DNA from: an uncultured Actinomycetota bacterium
GTDB taxonomy: Bacteria > Actinomycetota > Thermoleophilia > RBG-16-64-13
Assembly: GCA_963843515.1 (NCBI GenBank)
Contig: CAWJKH010000009.1
Coordinates: 7,472 to 71,471, forward strand
Direction of reading: 5' to 3'
DNA length: 64,000 bases
The notes beneath the pieces were generated by a model. The model made no database searches and was not told where the DNA came from. It was given only the letters and a program-made list of their open reading frames with translations. Below, in pieces: positions 15,705 to 62,276 of the stretch. A program made the position numbers and the translations under genes. The stretch's first letter is position 1. Each line of letters starts with the position of its first letter.

Positions 15705-17282
15705 TCAGCGGGCGGCCGCCACGAACTCGGCCGCTTCGTCGGCCTGGGTCTCGGCTGCGCCGGTTTCGTCGGCCTCCACTTCGAGTAGCACGGCGTCACC
15801 ACCCACCACGTCGGCCACCGCCACATCTGCGGCCGCCCCGTAAGGCACCTCATGGGGCCGCAGCGTGGCCCAGGCCTCGTCGGCCAGTTCCCGGAAATCG
15901 GCCGCATACTGGTCCATGGCGTGGGCATAGGTGGTGATAAGGTCCTCGGCCCCAGGGTGAGTCGGATGAGCCCCGGTTGTGCACACCGCCTCGCGGATGA
16001 CGTTGGGCTCATCTATGAGCATGCAGGGACGCAGCAGGTTTTCGCTGAACGGCTGCCGGGCCTGGATGGCGCGGAAGAAGGGCGACTTGAGCACCTCGGT
16101 GAGGGGCTTCTCCTTGATGTTGTCGGCCGCGAAGTGCGTGAAGATGCAAGGCTCCACGTCGCCCGTGGACGTGATGTGCATGTACGCCCGTCCACCTGCG
16201 ATGCACCCGCCCACATGCGGGGCGTCGTTCCAGAAATCCATGACGAATAGAGGCTTCTCGCTCCGGATGCGCTCGGCGCCATTGACCCGCAGATACTCGC
16301 GCTGCTCTGGAGTGGGCATGAGTGACAGGTCGGGATCGGCTCCCACCGGCATGTAGAGGAAGTGGAACCCGAACAGGCAGCCCTGTCCAATGAGGTAGTT
16401 GCAGAACTCGTCGCTGCTGGCCTCGAGGTAGTTGCGCGAGGTGACCATGGTGGAGAAGCCGAAGGGGATCTTGTGATGGCGAAGAAGGGCCATGGCCCGC
16501 TCGGTGCGTCTAAGCGCACCAAGCCCGCGCCGTGCGTCGTTGGTGGCCTCGCATCCGTCGACGCTGAAGCAGACAGCGACGTTCGCCGCCTTCGCCAGTC
16601 GGGCGGCCACCCCGTCATCGATCAGGCTACCGTTGCTGAAAACCAGGAAGTCGCAGTCGGAGTTCCGCTCGAACAGGTCGAGCACGTCCTTGCGGATGAA
16701 GGGCTCGCCTCCCAGCAAGGTGTACGCGTAGATGCCCAGTTCACGGCCTTCGGTCACGATCCGGTCGACGACCTCCATGGGCAGGTCGTCCTTCTGGTCG
16801 TACTCGCCGGCGTAGCATCCTGCGCAGGCCAGGTTGCAGCGCATGGTTGGGCTCATGAGAATAATGAATGGGGCCTTGGCGTCGTTGGCCCGTTCCCAAG
16901 CGCTGCGCCGCGCCCCTCCCTGCCACAGGGAATTCACCAGCAAGTTCGACACGGTGCGCGACAGATACTTGGACGAAGTGCTGTGGATAGCCCTGAGAAT
17001 GAGCTGCATCGCCACCGGCGGTGGATCCTGCTGGAGGGCGTTGTCGAAATACTCCCGCCAGATCTTCGCGTTGTGTCTCTGGTATTCGCTCGTTCCCAGA
17101 GTCTCGGCCAGACGGGCCATCCGGATGAGGTTCTTCTCGGGATTGGAGCTCAGCAGCTTGAGCATCTCGCCAAGGGCGATCTCCGTCGAACGCTGCTTGA
17201 GCCTCCCCACGCCAGCTACCATGCCGCCTCCGGACGTCGCTCTTGGTATTTGGAGATTGTCGCTAGGGATTGTTCCCACCAT
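15705..17282 (-). CDS. radical SAM protein with a C-terminal auxiliary-cluster (SPASM/twitch-like) region, 525 aa
   Basis: 'MRCNLACAGCYAGEY' (CX3CX2C), 'LLGGEPF', and downstream 'GGCIAGGRAYMHITSTGDVEPCIF...LRPCMLID'. A ~130-aa N-terminal extension is present. Confidence 0.85.
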   Translation of the reverse strand: MVGTIPSDNLQIPRATSGGGMVAGVGRLKQRSTEIALGEMLKLLSSNPEKNLIRMARLAETLGTSEYQRHNAKIWREYFDNALQQDPPPVAMQLILRAIHSTSSKYLSRTVSNLLVNSLWQGGARRSAWERANDAKAPFIILMSPTMRCNLACAGCYAGEYDQKDDLPMEVVDRIVTEGRELGIYAYTLLGGEPFIRKDVLDLFERNSDCDFLVFSNGSLIDDGVAARLAKAANVAVCFSVDGCEATNDARRGLGALRRTERAMALLRHHKIPFGFSTMVTSRNYLEASSDEFCNYLIGQGCLFGFHFLYMPVGADPDLSLMPTPEQREYLRVNGAERIRSEKPLFVMDFWNDAPHVGGCIAGGRAYMHITSTGDVEPCIFTHFAADNIKEKPLTEVLKSPFFRAIQARQPFSENLLRPCMLIDEPNVIREAVCTTGAHPTHPGAEDLITTYAHAMDQYAADFRELADEAWATLRPHEVPYGAAADVAVADVVGGDAVLLEVEADETGAAETQADEAAEFVAAAR

Positions 17283-17423
17283 GCTACAACTCTCACGCTT
17301 TGCGGGGAAGCCTGCTGAGCCCCTATACTGGGCGGCAGGGCGATCGCATTCCAGGTCTGGGGGATCGAAGCGGTGCAGCAGGACGTCACGAGCGGCAGCG
17401 AAGAGAGATCCACGCCTGGCACG

Positions 17424-18593
17424 ATGCAGCGCGATGGGGCCAGCGGATCGAACGTGCCTCGCTCGCTTTTCATCACCAACGACTTCCCCCCACGCATAGG
17501 GGGCGCGCAGTCGTACTACTGGGGACTGATACAGCTTCTCGACCCGACAGACGTCATCATCATCGCCCCGGATCAGCCCGGAGGCCAGGACTTTGACACT
17601 TCACATCCGTATACCGTCCACCGGTACCCGCTGGAACAACTGCGCCCCACGCGGGGACTGCTGCGGCTCTCCCTTGCGCTCATCGAACAATACGGGCTGG
17701 AGTTGGTCCAATTCGGCCATCCATTGCCCACGGGCCTTTTGGGCCCCAGTATCACAAAGCGTAGCGGTCTGCCGTATATCGTGTTCCTGGGTGGAGCCGA
17801 GGTCACCGTCCCCGCGGCCATGCCTATCGGCTCATCGCTGTTGCGCCACGTTCTGGGCAACGCGGCCCTTCTGGCCACGGTCAGCGACTTCACCGCTTCG
17901 GTGGCCGCGAAGGAGGTGCGCGGGCGGGTGCCGGCCGTCACCTTACGGCCTCCTCTGGACGGCGCATTCAATCTGCCGCCCTTGCCTGGGAAGGTCGAGG
18001 CCAAAGCTGAACTGGGGATCGACGGAGAATTGGTCATCATCATCGGCCGGCTCGTTCCGCGCAAGGGCCAGGACCGCCTCATCGAAGCGCTTGCCCTGCT
18101 CAGCGACGAGTACCCGCGCCTGAATCTCGCCATCATCGGTGGCGGGCGTATGGAGAAGCGCCTCAAACACACGGCGGCGTCGCTCGACGTGGACGAACGA
18201 GTGCTCATGACCGGGGCGCTGGATACCGAAGATCTGAAGATCTGGCTGAGGGCGGCCGACATCTTCGCCTGTCCCTGCCGCACCCGCTGGGGGGGCCTCG
18301 AGGTGGAGGGCTTCGGCATCGTGTTCGCCGAAGCGTCGTTGGCCCGCTTGCCGGTACTCGCCGGCCGGTCCGGCGGCGCCCCGGAGAGCGTCAAGAGTGG
18401 CGAGACGGGCATCATCCCGGCGGGTGATTCGAGCGAGGAGGTGGCGGAGGCTCTGCGCCGGCTGCTCGCGCTGACCCCTGACGCCCGCGCCGCGATGGGG
18501 GAGCGGGCCAGGGAGTTCACCCTCTCCCGGCACTCGCCGGAAGTCGTGGCCATACAGTACCGGGAACTGCTGGCCAGGGCGGTGAGGGCCTGA
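17424..18593 (+). CDS. GT4 glycosyltransferase, PimB-like (phosphatidylinositol mannoside mannosyltransferase-like)
   Basis: The N-terminal 'LFITNDFPPRIGGAQSY' signature is shared with the mycobacterial PimB(Rv2188c) type. C-terminal 'EGFGIVFAEA...P.LAGRSGGAPE' (the EX7E region). Confidence 0.75.
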   Translation: MQRDGASGSNVPRSLFITNDFPPRIGGAQSYYWGLIQLLDPTDVIIIAPDQPGGQDFDTSHPYTVHRYPLEQLRPTRGLLRLSLALIEQYGLELVQFGHPLPTGLLGPSITKRSGLPYIVFLGGAEVTVPAAMPIGSSLLRHVLGNAALLATVSDFTASVAAKEVRGRVPAVTLRPPLDGAFNLPPLPGKVEAKAELGIDGELVIIIGRLVPRKGQDRLIEALALLSDEYPRLNLAIIGGGRMEKRLKHTAASLDVDERVLMTGALDTEDLKIWLRAADIFACPCRTRWGGLEVEGFGIVFAEASLARLPVLAGRSGGAPESVKSGETGIIPAGDSSEEVAEALRRLLALTPDARAAMGERAREFTLSRHSPEVVAIQYRELLARAVRA

Positions 18594-18637
18594 GCACCGA
18601 AGAAAAGGGGCCGGCCGCGGACCGGAGCGACGACCCG

Positions 18638-19738
18638 GTGCCCCAGTCGGCGATCGAGAGCAGCGTGCTCGCGCCCCCCACCGGCACTTTCGACGCAGCC
18701 TCTGCGGCCGCATCGGCTGAGACCTCCGCCAATGCGGCCGCCCCGGGCGTCGTACGTTGGCGCCGCCTACTTTTCAACCTGGCCGCCGGTCTTGCCGTCG
18801 CCGCGGTTGTCATCGTGATCGCGGGTTCTCGTCTGGGGCCGCAGATAGCCAAAACGGACCTTGGCAACGCTCGTTACCCGTTCCTGGCTCTGGCCGGGCT
18901 GTGCCTCCTCATCGTGCTGCTCACGGAGGCCTTCACTCTGGTGGTGATCGCCCGCGCCCTGTGTCCGAAAGCGTCTACGTGGGGAATATTCGGCGTGGCC
19001 ATGGAATCGCTGCTGGTGGGGGGCGCAACGTCGTTCGGCGGGCTCGAGATCCCCTACCAAGTAGTCCGCCTCCGCTATTCCGGCCTAAGCGCCACGCAGG
19101 CCACCTCCGCGGTGATCGTCAAAGGGCTCATCCACACATCGCTGCTGGTCATCGTAGCGGCGGTGGCGCTCGTTCCGGCTATCGGGACCCGGCTGACCAG
19201 CCTCCAGCGATGGATCCTCATCGCCGTGATACTGGCGGTGATAGCTGGCTGGATCATCGCCGGCCTGTGGACGCACAAGCCGGTCGGCATGCGCCTATTG
19301 CCGGGGCGGGTGCGGAAGTACACGGACTCGTTTCGAGAGGCCAATATGGTGCTGTTCCACGCAGGATGGAGGGCCATCGTCAGCACCGTCACGCTGCAGG
19401 CCGTCTACTGGGTGGCCATGTTCTCCATCATCCCGCTGATCTTGATGGCGCTCGGCTACCAGGGCGGGCTACTGCACGTGATCGTCGCCCAGGCCGCCCT
19501 TCAGGTGATCATGCCTTTCTCGCCTCTGCCGGGCGGAGCGGGGGTGGCAGAACTGGGCTACCTAGGCCTGATAGGCGCGACCATCCCCCCCGACATCCGG
19601 GTGTCGAGTCTGCTCCTATGGCGTATCTTTACCTGGCTCGTCCCCATGACTATAGGAGCACTGGCGATAGGTACCCGGGTGGTCATATCGGGCAGGAAGA
19701 ACCGGGCAGCTCGGCGGCAGGTCTCACGTGTCGCGTGA
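18638..19738 (+). CDS. flippase-like (lysylphosphatidylglycerol-synthase TM-region/UPF0104) membrane protein
   Basis: About eight TM helices. 'PLPGGAGVAELG' near the C-terminus is typical of this family. The start is uncertain. Confidence 0.6.
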   Translation: MPQSAIESSVLAPPTGTFDAASAAASAETSANAAAPGVVRWRRLLFNLAAGLAVAAVVIVIAGSRLGPQIAKTDLGNARYPFLALAGLCLLIVLLTEAFTLVVIARALCPKASTWGIFGVAMESLLVGGATSFGGLEIPYQVVRLRYSGLSATQATSAVIVKGLIHTSLLVIVAAVALVPAIGTRLTSLQRWILIAVILAVIAGWIIAGLWTHKPVGMRLLPGRVRKYTDSFREANMVLFHAGWRAIVSTVTLQAVYWVAMFSIIPLILMALGYQGGLLHVIVAQAALQVIMPFSPLPGGAGVAELGYLGLIGATIPPDIRVSSLLLWRIFTWLVPMTIGALAIGTRVVISGRKNRAARRQVSRVA

Positions 19739-20420
19739 CCCAAGGACCCCACCGGCCGGCGGCCGCTCCCGGCGCCGGCCCAAGCGCCGTTGGTCGCCGT
19801 CGCCTTGGCGTTCGCTGCTCGCCGTTTCCGCCGCCTTCGCGGTTGGCTGCATACCGGCCGCCCGCCTGGCGGCGTTGTTCGCGACGCCGGATCAGAGGGA
19901 GCGACTCGAGACTGTCAACCCCGGAACATCGAGCATCTACCGGGTGATGGGCAAGAAGGCCGCCGTGGCAGTATTCACCGGGGACGCCCTCAAAGGCCTG
20001 GTGCCTCCCCTCGTGGGCCGCGCCGCGGGAGCTGATCCCGTTACCGTCGATGCGCTGATGCTGGCGCCCCTGGCCGGGCACATCACCGTGGGCGGCGGCC
20101 GGGGCGTGGCCGCGCTGTGCGGGTCGGTGCTGGCCGGCGATCCCCCCGGGTTCTTCATCACACTGCCTGTGTGGGTGATTCCCACCGCCAAGAAGGAACA
20201 CGCCCGAGGAGTGCTGGTGGCCTGCTTGATGTTCCCACTGGTGAGGTGGTGGCTCGGACGCGGCAAGGCGCGCATTGCGCTGGGGACCTTGGTGCCTTTG
20301 CTTCTCATCTACGGCCGCCTGCGGGGCCAGGGCTGGGCAGGGACGCAGTGGACCCCGAATCTGCTCTGGGCGAGGATCACGTGCGACGCGGACTCTACGA
20401 GAGGAGGTGACATGGTATGA
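19728..20420 (+). CDS. divergent PlsY-family (glycerol-3-phosphate acyltransferase-like) membrane protein
   Basis: 'NPGTSSIYRVMGKKAAVAVFTGDALKG' and 'LAGHI...GGGRGVAALCG' resemble the PlsY 'GSGNPGATN', 'D..KG' and 'GH.....GGKGVA' motifs. Confidence 0.55.
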   Translation: MSRDPRTPPAGGRSRRRPKRRWSPSPWRSLLAVSAAFAVGCIPAARLAALFATPDQRERLETVNPGTSSIYRVMGKKAAVAVFTGDALKGLVPPLVGRAAGADPVTVDALMLAPLAGHITVGGGRGVAALCGSVLAGDPPGFFITLPVWVIPTAKKEHARGVLVACLMFPLVRWWLGRGKARIALGTLVPLLLIYGRLRGQGWAGTQWTPNLLWARITCDADSTRGGDMV

Positions 20421-20616: not shown

Positions 20617-21900
20617 GTGACCGACACCACTATCGACTACCGCCCCATGTGGGAAAGCCTCGGGCTGGACTTGGAAGCCCACGATATGCTGCTCGCCGCC
20701 ATCCCTCAGCTGTACCAGCAGGCCTACCTCACTCAGAACGACCGCCCCGAAGGGATGGCCTACTTCGACTTCGTGATGAGCGAGATCCACGGCCTGCGCG
20801 TCAAGGAACTGCTGGACCACAAGGCCGCCGGAGGCACGGTCATCGGCACGTTCTGTCTCTATGTGCCCGAGGAGATCATCCGAGCACTCGGGGGGATCGC
20901 CGTGGGCCTGTGCGCCGGCGCCGAGTGGGCCTATGACAAGGTGGAGCGCCTGCTGCCCGCGAACACGTGCGCTCTTGTCAAATCCTTCATGGGCTTCAAG
21001 TTGGGGAGGGTCTGCCCGTACGTGGAGTCGGCCGACCTCGTCATCGGCGAGACCACCTGCGACGGCAAGAAGAAGGCGTACGAGTTGTTCGCCGAGTTCG
21101 CGCCCGTCTTCGTGATGGAGCTCCCGCAGATGAAGCGGCCGCACGACCTCGTCCTGTGGCGCTCGGAACTCGACCGCCTGGTCGCCACTCTGGAGGAAGT
21201 GAGCGGGCGGAAGCTCACAGCCGACGCCCTTGCCCAGGCGATCAAGGAAGTGAACGGCAAACGCCGGGCCTTGCAGCGCCTGAACGCCGCACGAAAGGCC
21301 TCCCCGGTGCCGATCTCCGGCAAAGATGCCCTGCTCGCGGTACAGGTGGCCTTCTACGACGACGTGCCTCGCTTCACCCAGATGGTGAACAAGATCGCGG
21401 ACGAACTGGAGGCACGGATAGCAGCCGGGCAGGGGGTGGCCCCCAAGGACGCCCCGCGGCTGATGATCACGGGAAGCCCCATGAGCATCCCCAACTGGAA
21501 GCTGCACGACATCATCGAGAAGGCGGGCGGCGTCGTGGTGGCCGAGGAACTCTGCACCGGCTCGCGCTACTACGAGAAGCTGGTGCCGGAGACGGCGACC
21601 ACGGTCGAGGCGATGCTCGACGATCTCGCGGCGAAGTACCTCGACATCAACTGCGCATGCTTCACTCCCAACCAGGGACGCACCCACGACGTGCTTCGCC
21701 TCGCGCAGGAGTACGCCGTCGACGGCGTGGTCGACTACTCGCTCCGGTTCTGCGCCCCCTACTCCATCGAGGCGACGTCATTGGCACGCGCGGTAAGGGA
21801 GGCCGGGTACAACTACTTGAGCATCGACACCGACTATTCCGCCGGTGATGTGGGCCAGCTCCAGACTCGGCTAGAAGCCTTCCTCGAGATGATGGCCTGA
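20617..21900 (+). CDS. 2-hydroxyacyl-CoA dehydratase/BcrBD family protein (double-cubane-cluster type)
   Basis: GTG follows AGGAGG. 'GTFCLYVPEEII', 'TCALVKSF', 'GETTCDGKKK' and 'LCTGSRYY' supply the conserved Cys ligands of this family. Confidence 0.75.
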   Translation: MTDTTIDYRPMWESLGLDLEAHDMLLAAIPQLYQQAYLTQNDRPEGMAYFDFVMSEIHGLRVKELLDHKAAGGTVIGTFCLYVPEEIIRALGGIAVGLCAGAEWAYDKVERLLPANTCALVKSFMGFKLGRVCPYVESADLVIGETTCDGKKKAYELFAEFAPVFVMELPQMKRPHDLVLWRSELDRLVATLEEVSGRKLTADALAQAIKEVNGKRRALQRLNAARKASPVPISGKDALLAVQVAFYDDVPRFTQMVNKIADELEARIAAGQGVAPKDAPRLMITGSPMSIPNWKLHDIIEKAGGVVVAEELCTGSRYYEKLVPETATTVEAMLDDLAAKYLDINCACFTPNQGRTHDVLRLAQEYAVDGVVDYSLRFCAPYSIEATSLARAVREAGYNYLSIDTDYSAGDVGQLQTRLEAFLEMMA

Positions 21901-60977: not shown

Positions 60978-62276
60978 GTGGACACTCACAACATTCGCGC
61001 GGACACCCTCACCGCCTTCCACGTGATGGCGAAGCCCACGGGGGCGCGCTGCAATCTGGATTGCGCCTACTGCTTCTTCCTCAAGAAGGACCGTCTCTAT
61101 CCGGACAGTACGTTCCGGATGTCAGATGAGGTGCTGGAGGCCTACATTCGCCAGACGATCGAGGGGCACACCACCCCCGAGATCACCATCGCCTGGCAAG
61201 GCGGCGAGCCCACCCTCATGGGTGTCGACTTCTTCCGAAAGGCTGTGGAGTTGGAATTGAGATACGCGCCTCCCGGGGTGCGCTTCGAAAATACACTCCA
61301 GACAAACGGCGTCCTTCTTGACGACGAGTGGTGCGAGTTCCTCCGGGAGCACGGGTTCCTGGTGGGCCTCAGCCTGGACGGGCCCCGGGAGATGCACGAC
61401 GCCTACCGGCGGGACAAGCGAGGCGGGTCCGTCTTCGACAAAGTGGTCGGCGCCGCCCGCCTCCTGCAGAAGCACGGAGTGGAGTTCAACATCCTCTGCA
61501 CCGTGAATGCAGTCAACAGCCTCCATCCTCTGGAGGTCTACCGTTTCTTCCGCGACGAGATGCGGGCCCCTTACCTGCAGTTCATCCCCATCGTGGAGCG
61601 CGACAACGACACCGGCGACCAGGTGGGCGCAGCGCTCACCGACCGGTCGGTGGACGGGCAAGAATACGGCCGGTTCTTGATGGAGATCTTCGACGAATGG
61701 GTCCACCACGACGTGGGAAAGATGTTCGTGCTGTTCTTTGACGGCGTACTCGCAGCCTACGTCTACGGCGAATCCAGCCTTTGTGTGCTTCGCTCTGCCT
61801 GCGGCGACGGGGTGGCGCTGGAGCACACCGGTGACGTCTACTCCTGTGACCACTATGTGGAACCCGGCTGCCTGCTGGGGAACATCCTCGAGACGCCGTT
61901 GCGGGACCTGGTGCTATCGGACAAGCAGCGGGCCTTCGGCGACGCCAAGACCTCGACCCTCCCGAAGACCTGTCGCGTGTGTCGCTGGCTTTTCGCCTGC
62001 CATGGCGAATGCCCCAAGAACAGAGTGCTCACCACATCCGGAGGCGAGCCCGGGCTCAACTGGCTGTGCGAGGGGCTGCGGGCCTTTTTCGAGCATACCG
62101 AGCGCCCCATGCACCTGATGGCCGACCTGCTGCGGCAGGGCCGGCCGGCCGATGAGGTCATGGGCATTTTGGCCGAGGAGGAGCGACAGCGCGCCGCGCT
62201 CTTGGCGGCGGCCGGCCGCAACGACCCCTGCCCGTGCGGGAGCGGCCTGAAGTACAAGAAGTGCCACGGAGCCTGA
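60978..62276 (+). CDS. anaerobic sulfatase-maturase-like radical SAM/SPASM enzyme with a C-terminal SEC-C motif
   Basis: 'AKPTGARCNLDCAYCFF', 'WQGGEPTL', SPASM cysteines 'CVLRSACG...YSCDHY...CRVCRWLFACHGECPKNR', and the end 'CPCGSGLKYKKCHG'. Confidence 0.8.
   Translation: MDTHNIRADTLTAFHVMAKPTGARCNLDCAYCFFLKKDRLYPDSTFRMSDEVLEAYIRQTIEGHTTPEITIAWQGGEPTLMGVDFFRKAVELELRYAPPGVRFENTLQTNGVLLDDEWCEFLREHGFLVGLSLDGPREMHDAYRRDKRGGSVFDKVVGAARLLQKHGVEFNILCTVNAVNSLHPLEVYRFFRDEMRAPYLQFIPIVERDNDTGDQVGAALTDRSVDGQEYGRFLMEIFDEWVHHDVGKMFVLFFDGVLAAYVYGESSLCVLRSACGDGVALEHTGDVYSCDHYVEPGCLLGNILETPLRDLVLSDKQRAFGDAKTSTLPKTCRVCRWLFACHGECPKNRVLTTSGGEPGLNWLCEGLRAFFEHTERPMHLMADLLRQGRPADEVMGILAEEERQRAALLAAAGRNDPCPCGSGLKYKKCHGA

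What the first reader, a model, noticed from the sequence alone, without database searches (positions are those of the whole stretch)
15705..20420. Membrane-lipid gene cluster centred on an uncharacterised 525-aa radical SAM enzyme
A large radical SAM protein has CX3CX2C plus a Cys-containing auxiliary region and a ~130-aa N-terminal extension. It is divergently adjacent to three consecutive, nearly abutting genes: a PimB-like GT4 glycosyltransferase, a flippase-like LPG-synthase-TM protein, and a divergent PlsY-like acyltransferase (10-bp overlap). All three neighbours act on glycerolipids. This suggests the radical SAM modifies lipid chains. Known precedents for that chemistry are the tetraether/membrane-spanning lipid synthases (Tes/GDGT-MAS, Mss). 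I cannot establish homology to those by eye.
Basis: inference. Interest (0 to 1): 0.6.

Follow-up and report, generated by a model that had tools for sequence, protein, structure and literature searches.

The report
Mss-type lipid synthase beside glycolipid genes
The large radical SAM gene is a homologue of the known bacterial enzyme family (Mss) that welds two fatty-acid tails into one membrane-spanning lipid, and it sits back-to-back with a self-contained glycolipid gene trio only in this one genus, so it is a new member of a known kind, not a new kind of enzyme.

Summary
All four genes are real and lie at the stated coordinates. The radical SAM protein (525 aa as listed, probably 505 aa from Met21) has a CX3CX2C core, a family-typical helical N-domain and one twitch-like auxiliary-cluster site (Cys360/379/420).

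**Identity.** It belongs to the bacterial membrane-spanning lipid synthase (Mss) family. It is 41-42% identical (E about 1e-125) to the Hathewaya limosa and Eubacterium multiforme proteins that the discoverers of Mss list as Mss homologues. It is not a Tes/GDGT-MAS member (19.5 bits against a 450-bit cut-off).

**Paralogues.** The genus carries three Mss paralogues. This one is sister to a Coriobacteriia clade whose gene ends a TetR-acyltransferase-patatin-DegV operon.

**Neighbours.** They are a PimB'-like GT4, an MprF-type flippase-like protein and a divergent third PlsY paralogue. They form an autonomous module, which recurs in other genera without the radical SAM, twice in genomes with no Mss-family gene. 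The adjacency holds only within this genus and one 73%-identical metagenomic relative.

**Function.** Tail-to-tail coupling of acyl chains is inferred from homology. I could not retrieve the two experimentally verified Mss sequences.

**Earlier work.** The scan reached the same verdict earlier on another genome (e1-1429236).

The parts
15705..17282 (-). Mss-family radical SAM gene (paralogue group A). 525 aa as listed, with the likely true start at Met21 (ATG at 17222), giving 505 aa. Helical N-domain at residues 21-133, radical SAM core with C149/C153/C156, a twitch-like auxiliary-cluster site CX13GX4C (C360...C379) plus C420, and an unconserved acidic/Ala-rich tail from about residue 479.
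   Evidence: model pLDDT 86; link to the literature's Mss homologues; tree; start codon.
17281..17329 (.). Conserved block in the 90-bp divergent intergenic region. It reads as back-to-back promoter-like elements. For the + strand: TTGCGG (17300-17305), 18 nt, TATACT (17324-17329). For the - strand: TTCCCC (17309-17304), 17 nt, TAGCAT (17286-17281). Inferred from consensus and conservation, not shown.
   Evidence: Alignment of six congeneric intergenic regions and the sequence itself. The consensus scanner found no site at its threshold.
17373..18593 (+). PimB'-like GT4 glycosyltransferase, the first gene of the trio.
   Evidence: Pfam Glycos_transf_1 at 1.8e-37. Full-length match to C. glutamicum PimB' (3OKA/3OKC) at E=1.1e-50. 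Orthologues at 50-55% identity head the same trio in other genera.
18638..19738 (+). MprF-type flippase-like membrane protein (LPG_synthase_TM). Orthologues align only from about residue 37, so the listed start may be too early.
   Evidence: (TIGR00374 above its cut-off; weak hits to MprF and to the GlcN-PG flippase model).
19728..20420 (+). Divergent PlsY paralogue, the third PF02660 copy in the genome. Motif 1 is degenerate (ETVNPGTSS where canonical PlsY has GSGNxGxTN). Motif 3 has a 5-residue deletion. The DxxKG motif and the His-...-GG(K/R)G motif are kept.
   Evidence: 48 bits against a 137-bit cut-off; canonical copy at G000:C3:42074, 180 bits; alignment.

Best explanation
**What the gene is.** The gene at 15705-17282 encodes a member of the bacterial membrane-spanning lipid synthase (Mss) family. 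These are anaerobic radical SAM enzymes.

**Proposed mechanism.**
- The CX3CX2C cluster cleaves SAM to a 5'-deoxyadenosyl radical.
- That radical abstracts a hydrogen at or next to the methyl end of a lipid-bound fatty acyl chain.
- The chain radical is then joined to the tail of a second chain. This probably involves the single three-cysteine auxiliary [4Fe-4S] cluster (C360/C379/C420, with an open or C302-filled fourth site).
- The product is a diabolic or iso-diabolic-acid-type diacid that spans the membrane.

**Paralogues.** This is one of three Mss paralogues in the genus (group A). Group B is the class-wide copy. In two genomes of another family of the same class it lies within 4 kb of a PlsA/Ger-type ester reductase gene.

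**The neighbours.** The GT4 (PimB'-like), flippase-like and PlsY-like genes form a separate, self-sufficient module. It most likely makes a mannosylated, possibly inositol-based, glycolipid on the inner leaflet, modifies it and flips it outward. In this genus the Mss paralogue has come to lie back-to-back with that module behind a conserved divergent promoter block. It may therefore act on, or be co-expressed with, that glycolipid, but this link is weak.

**Shown:** gene integrity, domain content, homology to the proteins the literature lists as Mss homologues, the paralogy, and the autonomy of the trio.

**Inferred:** the chemistry, the substrate and any coupling with the trio.
For: **Family membership.**
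- The protein is 41-42% identical (E=1e-125 to 1e-129) over about 450 residues to the H. limosa and E. multiforme proteins.
- Exact-sequence look-up shows those proteins are WP_307356026.1 and WP_307484919.1.
- Both accessions are listed as 'Mss homologe' in Table S3 of PMC13274423.
- It keeps every invariant residue of a 65-sequence family alignment.

**Phylogeny.** Group A plus its Coriobacteriia sister (support 0.99) is sister to the Firmicutes Mss-homologue clade, which contains Clostridium, Hathewaya and Moorella sequences (support 0.96).

**Lipid context of relatives.**
- All five sampled contigs of that TetR-operon subclade carry a TetR-patatin operon ending in the radical SAM gene, four with DegV and two with a PlsC-type acyltransferase.
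- A further contig of the sister clade has the gene directly after an LPG_synthase_TM gene.
- About 100 further family loci show PlsA/Ger-like genes (11 loci), B12 radical SAM genes (19), lipid A-type acyltransferases (11), and FabD-like and thioesterase genes.

**Own genome.** It carries a PlsA/Ger-like gene. Mss/Ger co-occurrence is the pattern the literature reports (PMC13159169, PMC13274423).

**Distribution.** The family occurs in anaerobes: Actinomycetota, Chloroflexota, Bacillota and Atribacterota. This matches the published distribution.

**Structure.** The model is confident (pLDDT 86) and is a SPASM/twitch-type radical SAM fold.

**Synteny.** The arrangement with the trio is kept in all five congeneric orthologue loci and in a 73%-identical metagenomic contig. 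The divergent intergenic block is conserved.
Against: - I could not retrieve the two experimentally verified enzymes (Tmari_0825, WP_129545148.1). The link to them runs through proteins the discoverers list as homologues at E<1e-30 and >30% identity.
- The Mss literature itself notes that homologue presence does not always coincide with detected membrane-spanning lipids.
- Three paralogues per genome at about 44% mutual identity leave room for diverged function.
- The trio exists without the radical SAM in five other genomes.
- The wider flanking genes (LppM-like, PQQ propeller) are just as syntenic within the genus. The adjacency may therefore be mere linkage.
- No lipid data exist for this uncultured organism.
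Confidence: 0.6

Rival explanations
1. Group A is a neofunctionalised Mss paralogue. It still works on lipid-bound acyl chains but carries out a different radical modification or uses a different substrate. Possibilities include coupling or cross-linking the chains of the PIM-like glycolipid made by the neighbouring trio, a different regiochemistry, or a second coupling step. The class-wide group B copy would then be the ordinary Mss.
For: - The genus carries three paralogues at about 44% mutual identity.
- Group B, not group A, is the copy next to PlsA/Ger-like genes in two genomes of the same class.
- Group A sits on a long stem (0.37 substitutions per site).
- Only group A is back-to-back with the glycolipid trio, behind a conserved promoter block.
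- One relative in the sister clade follows an LPG_synthase_TM gene.
Against: - All family-invariant residues and the auxiliary-cluster cysteines are retained.
- The trio functions without any Mss-family gene elsewhere.
- No direct evidence points to a different chemistry.
Confidence: 0.27
2. The enzyme is a non-lipid SPASM/twitch radical SAM enzyme, such as a peptide or cofactor maturase, and lies beside lipid genes by chance.
For: - The best NCBIfam, PDB and Foldseek matches are maturases and cofactor enzymes: AhbD, NirJ, MftC, PqqE, SkfB, SuiB and anSME.
- All NCBIfam matches are far below their cut-offs.
- The adjacency is not conserved beyond the genus.
Against: - No precursor peptide or cofactor genes lie nearby.
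- The family's recurrent neighbours across phyla are lipid genes.
- The homology to the literature's Mss homologues (E about 1e-125) is far stronger than to any maturase (E about 1e-9 to 1e-23).
Confidence: 0.05
3. The enzyme is a bacterial Tes/GDGT-MAS-type tetraether synthase.
For: - Both have a radical SAM core that starts near residue 110-140 after an N-terminal extension.
- The family profile touches 7TOL at E=2.9e-8 over the core only.
Against: - The protein scores 19.5 bits against the 450-bit cut-off of NF045702.
- A single-sequence search finds no hit to 7TOL.
- 7TOL/7TOM are absent from the top 50 Foldseek matches.
- Only 3-4 conserved cysteines follow the core, whereas Tes has two auxiliary clusters and a further iron site.
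Confidence: 0.02

Closest known systems
Mss, the bacterial membrane-spanning lipid synthase (Thermotoga maritima Tmari_0825; Thermoanaerobacter ethanolicus WP_129545148.1; Sahonero-Canavesi et al. 2022, PMC13159169)
   Same: - It is a radical SAM enzyme of about 450-500 aa from strict anaerobes.
- It is 39-45% identical (E=1e-110 to 1e-139) to Firmicutes family members. Two of these (WP_307356026.1, WP_307484919.1) are listed by the discoverers as Mss homologues. C. tepidum has such a listing too, but I could not match the accession to the sequence I compared.
- A PlsA/Ger-type reductase gene occurs in the same genome.
- Actinobacterial homologues were already reported in that paper.
   Different: - It is one of three paralogues in its genus and is restricted to one genus.
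- It is sister to a Coriobacteriia clade.
- It lies back-to-back with a PimB'-like/flippase/PlsY-like module.
- Its activity is untested, and I could not compare it directly with the two verified sequences.
Tes / GDGT-MAS (MJ0619, PDB 7TOL/7TOM; NCBIfam NF045702)
   Same: - The proposed chemistry is the same: radical sp3-sp3 coupling of two lipid tails.
- Both have a radical SAM core after an N-terminal extension.
- Both are proposed to use an auxiliary Fe-S cluster.
   Different: - It scores 19.5 bits against a 450-bit cut-off.
- It has one twitch-like auxiliary site instead of two auxiliary clusters plus a further iron site.
- Tes is not among its 50 best structural matches.
- The substrates would be ester-linked fatty acyl chains, not phytanyl ethers.
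Glycosyltransferase plus MprF-type flippase operons (gpgSDF of Pseudomonas aeruginosa, PMC12713373); PimB' of Corynebacterium glutamicum (PDB 3OKA)
   Same: - The neighbouring trio pairs a lipid glycosyltransferase with an LPG_synthase_TM flippase-like protein, as in gpgSDF.
- The GT4 aligns over its full length with PimB' (E=1e-50).
   Different: - The third gene is a divergent PlsY paralogue, not a deacetylase.
- The lipid acceptor and the sugar are unknown.
- The matches to the GlcN-PG models are weak (6.8e-10 and 1.2e-4), far below their cut-offs.

Membership tests
Mss (bacterial membrane-spanning lipid synthase) | A radical SAM core with CX3CX2C and a GGEP SAM-binding motif | tested here: met
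   C149/C153/C156 and GGEP at residues 191-194. Pfam Radical_SAM at 3.6e-14.
Mss (bacterial membrane-spanning lipid synthase) | Full-length homology to proteins the discoverers accept as Mss homologues (>30% identity, E<1e-30) | tested here: met
   40.9% identity and E=1e-124 to WP_307356026.1. 41.5% identity and E=1e-128 to WP_307484919.1. Identities confirmed by exact look-up and by Table S3 of PMC13274423.
Mss (bacterial membrane-spanning lipid synthase) | Direct homology to the two experimentally verified enzymes (Tmari_0825, WP_129545148.1) at E<=1e-50 and >=30% identity | not testable with these tools
   The sequences could not be retrieved. Neither Thermotoga nor Thermoanaerobacter appeared among the 80 genome loci or the three 120-hit lists.
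Mss (bacterial membrane-spanning lipid synthase) | The family-conserved blocks and auxiliary-cluster cysteines are retained | tested here: met
   All 51 invariant columns of alignment A1 are present. C360/C379/C420 are 100% conserved and C302 is 81% conserved.
Mss (bacterial membrane-spanning lipid synthase) | An anaerobic host with a co-occurring PlsA/Ger-type ester reductase | tested here: met
   A PlsA/Ger-like gene lies at G000:C5:112857-115953. It is read in several frames, so it is either broken or carries assembly errors. Anaerobic markers such as the double-cubane reductase lie in the window.
Mss (bacterial membrane-spanning lipid synthase) | Formation of diabolic or iso-diabolic acids from two acyl chains | not testable with these tools
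   This needs anaerobic heterologous expression and GC-MS.
Tes / GDGT-MAS (NF045702) | A score above the curated cut-off of the family model | tested here: not met
   19.5 bits against 450 bits at G000:C9:23950-24327.
Tes / GDGT-MAS (NF045702) | A full SPASM-type region with two auxiliary clusters (CX2CX5CX3C) and a further iron site | tested here: not met
   Only CX13GX4C (C360...C379) plus C420 are conserved. There is no CX2CX5CX3C motif.
Tes / GDGT-MAS (NF045702) | The closest solved structure is GDGT-MAS | tested here: not met
   The top Foldseek matches are SuiB, SkfB and anSME, and 7TOL/7TOM are not in the top 50. The family profile hits 7TOL at 2.9e-8 over the core only and ranks it 10th.
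PlsY (TIGR00023) for the gene at 19728-20420 | A score above the equivalog cut-off and intact motifs 1-3 | tested here: not met
   48 bits against 137 bits. Motif 1 is degenerate and motif 3 has a 5-residue deletion. A canonical PlsY lies elsewhere in the genome.
PimB'-type GT4 for the gene at 17373-18593 | Full-length homology to the structurally characterised PimB' | tested here: met
   3OKA/3OKC at E=1.1e-50, aligning residues 30-393 with 6-369. Donor and acceptor specificity are not testable here.
MprF-type flippase-like domain (TIGR00374 / PF03706) for the gene at 18638-19738 | A score above the curated cut-off | tested here: met
   TIGR00374 at 58.2 bits against 43.2. PF03706 at 68 bits against 33.4. 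Flipping activity is not testable here.

The most novel reading that the evidence does not exclude
The genus-specific group A Mss paralogue is specialised for the mannosylated, PIM-like glycolipid made, flipped and modified by the adjacent PimB'-like/MprF-like/PlsY-like module. Together they would produce membrane-spanning (bolaform) glycolipids in anaerobic Actinomycetota. As a corollary, the LPG_synthase_TM protein of the trio would be a candidate for the still-unidentified flippase of PIM-type glycolipids.
Probability: 0.12. Interest if true: 0.6.

Novelty: new member of a known kind. Interest (0 to 1): 0.3.

Why it matters
Mss-type enzymes are the leading candidates for making bacterial membrane-spanning lipids, and with Ger the branched GDGTs used as palaeoclimate proxies, in anoxic settings.

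This locus adds an uncultured anaerobic actinobacterial genus with three Mss paralogues. That offers a natural test of whether paralogues differ in substrate or regiochemistry.

The result also corrects an attractive but weak inference. The glycolipid trio is an independent module, so adjacency alone should not be read as a pathway.

The trio itself (PimB'-like GT4, MprF-type flippase-like protein, aberrant PlsY paralogue) is conserved across several genera. It is a small, testable candidate system for glycolipid export in Actinomycetota.

Tried and rejected
1. **Retrieving the verified Mss sequences.** I tried one genome-contig scan (capped at 80 loci) and two further protein searches seeded from Desulfovirgula and a Thermosediminibacterales MAG. 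These returned Moorella, Carboxydothermus and Thermacetogenium but no Thermoanaerobacter or Thermotoga. The supplements of PMC13159169 are not held. T. maritima is among the control genomes but only as a yes/no result.
2. **Tes membership.** Rejected.
3. **The downstream double-cubane/HGD-D gene (20617-21900) as a hidden Ger-like partner.** Rejected. It has no significant similarity to the PlsA/Ger-like protein and is not syntenic in congeners.
4. **The consensus promoter scan.** It found nothing at its threshold. The promoter-like block rests on conservation only.
5. **The surroundings of the genome's own group B paralogue** (G000:C9:101435-102841). By eye the neighbouring translations looked like ordinary genes (an aminotransferase-like and a dehydrogenase-like protein among them). 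I saw no obvious lipid gene, but I did not run them against any profile library.
6. **Looking up Moorella and Carboxydothermus accessions in Table S3.** The stored table is truncated, so this was uninformative.
7. **Organism names for the genus.** None were obtained.
Full report
**Observation.**
- Radical SAM: 15705-17282 (-), 525 aa.
- GT4: 17373-18593 (+), 406 aa.
- LPG_synthase_TM protein: 18638-19738 (+), 366 aa.
- PlsY-like protein: 19728-20420 (+), 230 aa, overlapping the previous gene by 11 nt.

Pfam and NCBIfam confirm the domain calls. The radical SAM protein reaches no curated NCBIfam cut-off; its best hits (AhbD, NirJ2, MftC) score about 80 bits against cut-offs of 265-500. The PlsY-like protein scores 48 bits against the 137-bit PlsY cut-off. 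The flippase-like protein passes TIGR00374.

The window is G000:C9:7472-71471 of a 1.76-Mb, 70%-complete genome. NCBI record titles of same-class and same-family genomes read 'Thermoleophilia bacterium' and 'Actinomycetes bacterium' (L098 is G026 and L060 is G018).

**Anatomy of the radical SAM protein.**
- CX3CX2C is C149/C153/C156.
- In alignments of 134 and of 65 family members, the only other conserved cysteines are C360, C379 and C420 (all 100%) and C302 (81%).
- C360-X13-G374-X4-C379 is the CX9-15GX4C hairpin of SPASM/twitch domains. The CX2CX5CX3C motif of full SPASM domains is absent. I therefore read one auxiliary cluster with three, perhaps four, cysteine ligands (inference from the sequence).
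- An AlphaFold2 model built on the 65-sequence alignment is confident (pLDDT 86, pTM 0.84). It shows a five-helix N-domain (residues 21-133), the core, the twitch-like region and a disordered tail from about residue 479.
- Residues 1-19 are disordered and orthologues align only from residue 12-20.
- In the six congeneric intergenic regions, a GGAGG four bases before the Met21 codon is conserved. A conserved block overlaps the listed ATG. The real start is therefore probably 17222 (505 aa).

**What family it is.** The protein has thousands of relatives of about 450-470 aa in Coriobacteriia, Chloroflexota, Bacillota, Atribacterota and others. All are annotated only as 'radical SAM protein'.

A scan of species-representative genomes returned named loci. 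Among them were Hathewaya limosa (L095), Eubacterium multiforme (L075) and several Clostridium species. Exact-sequence look-up shows that the L095 and L075 proteins are WP_307356026.1 and WP_307484919.1. Both accessions are listed under 'Mss homologe' in Supplementary Table 3 of PMC13274423, whose criteria are >30% identity and E<1e-30 to the confirmed Mss. My protein is 40.9% and 41.5% identical to them (E=1e-124 and 1e-128) and 44.6% identical to the C. tepidum protein.

Mss was defined by anaerobic expression of Tmari_0825 and WP_129545148.1 in E. coli, which produced C32-C34 diacids. Homologues were reported in Actinobacteria, Chloroflexi, Atribacterota and many other anaerobes (PMC13159169). 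I could not obtain the two verified sequences, so the link to them is transitive.

**Not Tes.**
- A single-sequence search of PDB chains finds no GDGT-MAS.
- The family profile reaches 7TOL only at E=2.9e-8 over the N-terminal half of the core, ranking it tenth behind SkfB, SuiB, PqqE, BlsE and anSME.
- The 50 best Foldseek matches to the model are SuiB, SkfB, anSME, DesII, MoaA, viperin and similar, without 7TOL/7TOM.
- The curated Tes model NF045702 gives 19.5 bits against a 450-bit cut-off on this gene. No hit in the genome exceeds the cut-off.

**Paralogues and phylogeny.** Among 41 related genomes, 26 have a family member and several have two to four. A FastTree of 239 sequences resolves three groups in the genus.
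- **Group A (this gene).** It is found in six of nine congeneric genomes and in metagenomes down to 73% identity. It has a long stem and is sister to a Coriobacteriia clade (support 0.99). Together they are sister to the Firmicutes Mss-homologue clade, which holds the two anchor proteins plus Moorella and Thermosediminibacterales sequences (support 0.96).
- **Group B.** This includes a second copy in this genome at G000:C9:101435-102841, outside the window. It is the class-wide copy.
- **Group C.** This is a third lineage.

All three groups are 39-45% identical to Firmicutes homologues.

**The neighbours.**
- *GT4.* It aligns over its full length with Corynebacterium glutamicum PimB' (3OKA/3OKC, E=1.1e-50).
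- *PlsY-like gene.* It is the third and most divergent PF02660 copy. The canonical copy scores 180 bits at G000:C3:42074, a second copy scores 114 bits, and this one scores 69 bits. Its subfamily has a degenerate motif 1 and a 5-residue deletion in motif 3.
- *Autonomy of the trio.* The trio GT4-flippase-PlsY-like, often followed by a second GT4, occurs as adjacent genes in four other genera of the same family (G010, G016, G023, G014) and in another family of the class (G036). Identities are 50-55%, 46-55% and 33-36% for the three proteins. None of these loci has a radical SAM gene nearby. In the two loci I annotated with Pfam (G023, G016) the module lies between isopropylmalate-synthase-like and isopropylmalate-dehydrogenase genes.
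- G010 and G016 are 98% complete, and no Mss-family match was found in them at E<=1e-20.
- Inositol-1-phosphate synthase is present in trio-bearing genomes. This fits, but does not prove, an inositol-lipid acceptor.
- Glycosyltransferase plus MprF-type flippase operons have a precedent in gpgSDF (PMC12713373).

The radical SAM-trio adjacency is kept in all five congeneric orthologue loci and in the 73%-identical contig. However, the unrelated LppM-like and PQQ-propeller genes on the other side are equally syntenic there. Within the genus, G005 (96% complete) shows neither the group A gene, the flippase-like gene nor the PlsY-like gene.

**Lipid context elsewhere in the family.**
- In the Coriobacteriia sister clade, five of five sampled contigs of one subclade carry a TetR-patatin operon that ends in the radical SAM gene. 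Four of them include DegV and two include a PlsC-type acyltransferase.
- A sixth contig has the gene directly after an LPG_synthase_TM gene of another subfamily.
- Clustering the neighbours within 4 kb in about 100 loci gave these recurrent families: B12-binding radical SAM (19 loci), GT2 (17), lipid A-type acyltransferase (11), a 1036-aa PlsA/Ger-like protein with two BcrAD_BadFG domains plus DUF2229 (11 loci, including group B loci of G031 and G026), polysaccharide deacetylase (9), 4HBT thioesterase and FabD-like.
- These loci are not phylogenetically independent, so I give counts and no statistics.
- This genome has a PlsA/Ger-like gene on C5, read in several frames.
- The double-cubane gene downstream of the trio is unrelated to Ger and is not syntenic in congeners.

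**Regulatory hint.** The 90-bp divergent gap holds a block (17281-17329) that is nearly invariant across the genus. It reads as back-to-back promoter-like elements with overlapping -35 regions. The consensus scanner did not call them. This is compatible with co-regulation but does not prove it.

**Mechanism and rivals.**
- *Best reading (0.6).* The gene encodes an Mss-family enzyme that couples the tails of two lipid-bound acyl chains, with the auxiliary cluster assisting as postulated for Tes, Gms and Mss (PMC13459092).
- *Main rival (0.27).* Group A has diverged in substrate or reaction, possibly towards the neighbouring glycolipid.
- *Non-lipid maturase (0.05) and Tes-type enzyme (0.02).* Both are poorly supported.

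**Novelty.** Actinobacterial Mss homologues were already reported. An earlier follow-up in this scan reached the same verdict for the same arrangement in another genome (e1-1429236).
- the accession-level link to the literature's homologue list;
- the three-paralogue structure;
- the Coriobacteriia lipid operon;
- the demonstration that the trio is autonomous.

I rate it a new member of a known kind, of modest interest.

Noticed in passing
window 17373-20420; L123-L127 (G010, G016, G023, G036, G014): The PimB'-like GT4, MprF-type flippase-like and aberrant PlsY paralogue trio is conserved across at least five genera and two families of this actinobacterial class, independently of any radical SAM gene. 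It is often followed by a second GT4. It is a compact candidate glycolipid synthesis and export module. I did not find it described, but I made no dedicated literature search for it.
   Followed up: partly
G000:C9:101435-102841 (outside the window); G001/G003/G004 group C loci L028-L030: The genus carries up to three or four Mss-family paralogues per genome. In G031 and G026, the class-wide group B copy lies within 4 kb of a PlsA/Ger-like gene.
   Followed up: partly
G000:C5:112857-115953: The PlsA/Ger-like ester reductase gene of this genome is recovered only as tblastn pieces in several frames. It is either frameshifted or carries assembly errors.
   Followed up: no
L034, L131-L134 (Coriobacteriia contigs): A conserved operon of TetR, patatin-like lipase and Mss-family radical SAM, usually with DegV (4 of 5 contigs) and sometimes a PlsC-type acyltransferase (2 of 5). 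It suggests a regulated acyl-chain remodelling pathway around Mss in Coriobacteriia.
   Followed up: partly
window 60978-62276 (+): A second SPASM radical SAM gene in the window is an ordinary anaerobic sulfatase maturase (TIGR03942, 465 bits against a 349-bit cut-off).
   Followed up: yes
window 20617-21900 (+): A double-cubane-cluster reductase (NF040772, 476 bits) lies directly downstream of the trio. It is not syntenic in congeners and is unrelated to the Ger-like protein.
   Followed up: partly
L046, L047, L054, L058, L065, L073 and 13 other loci: In 19 loci, mostly from Thermodesulfobacteriota/'Deltaproteobacteria', Zixibacteria and Nitrospirota, a B12-binding radical SAM gene lies within 4 kb of the Mss-family gene. 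It often comes with GT2, a lipid A-type acyltransferase and a deacetylase.
   Followed up: no
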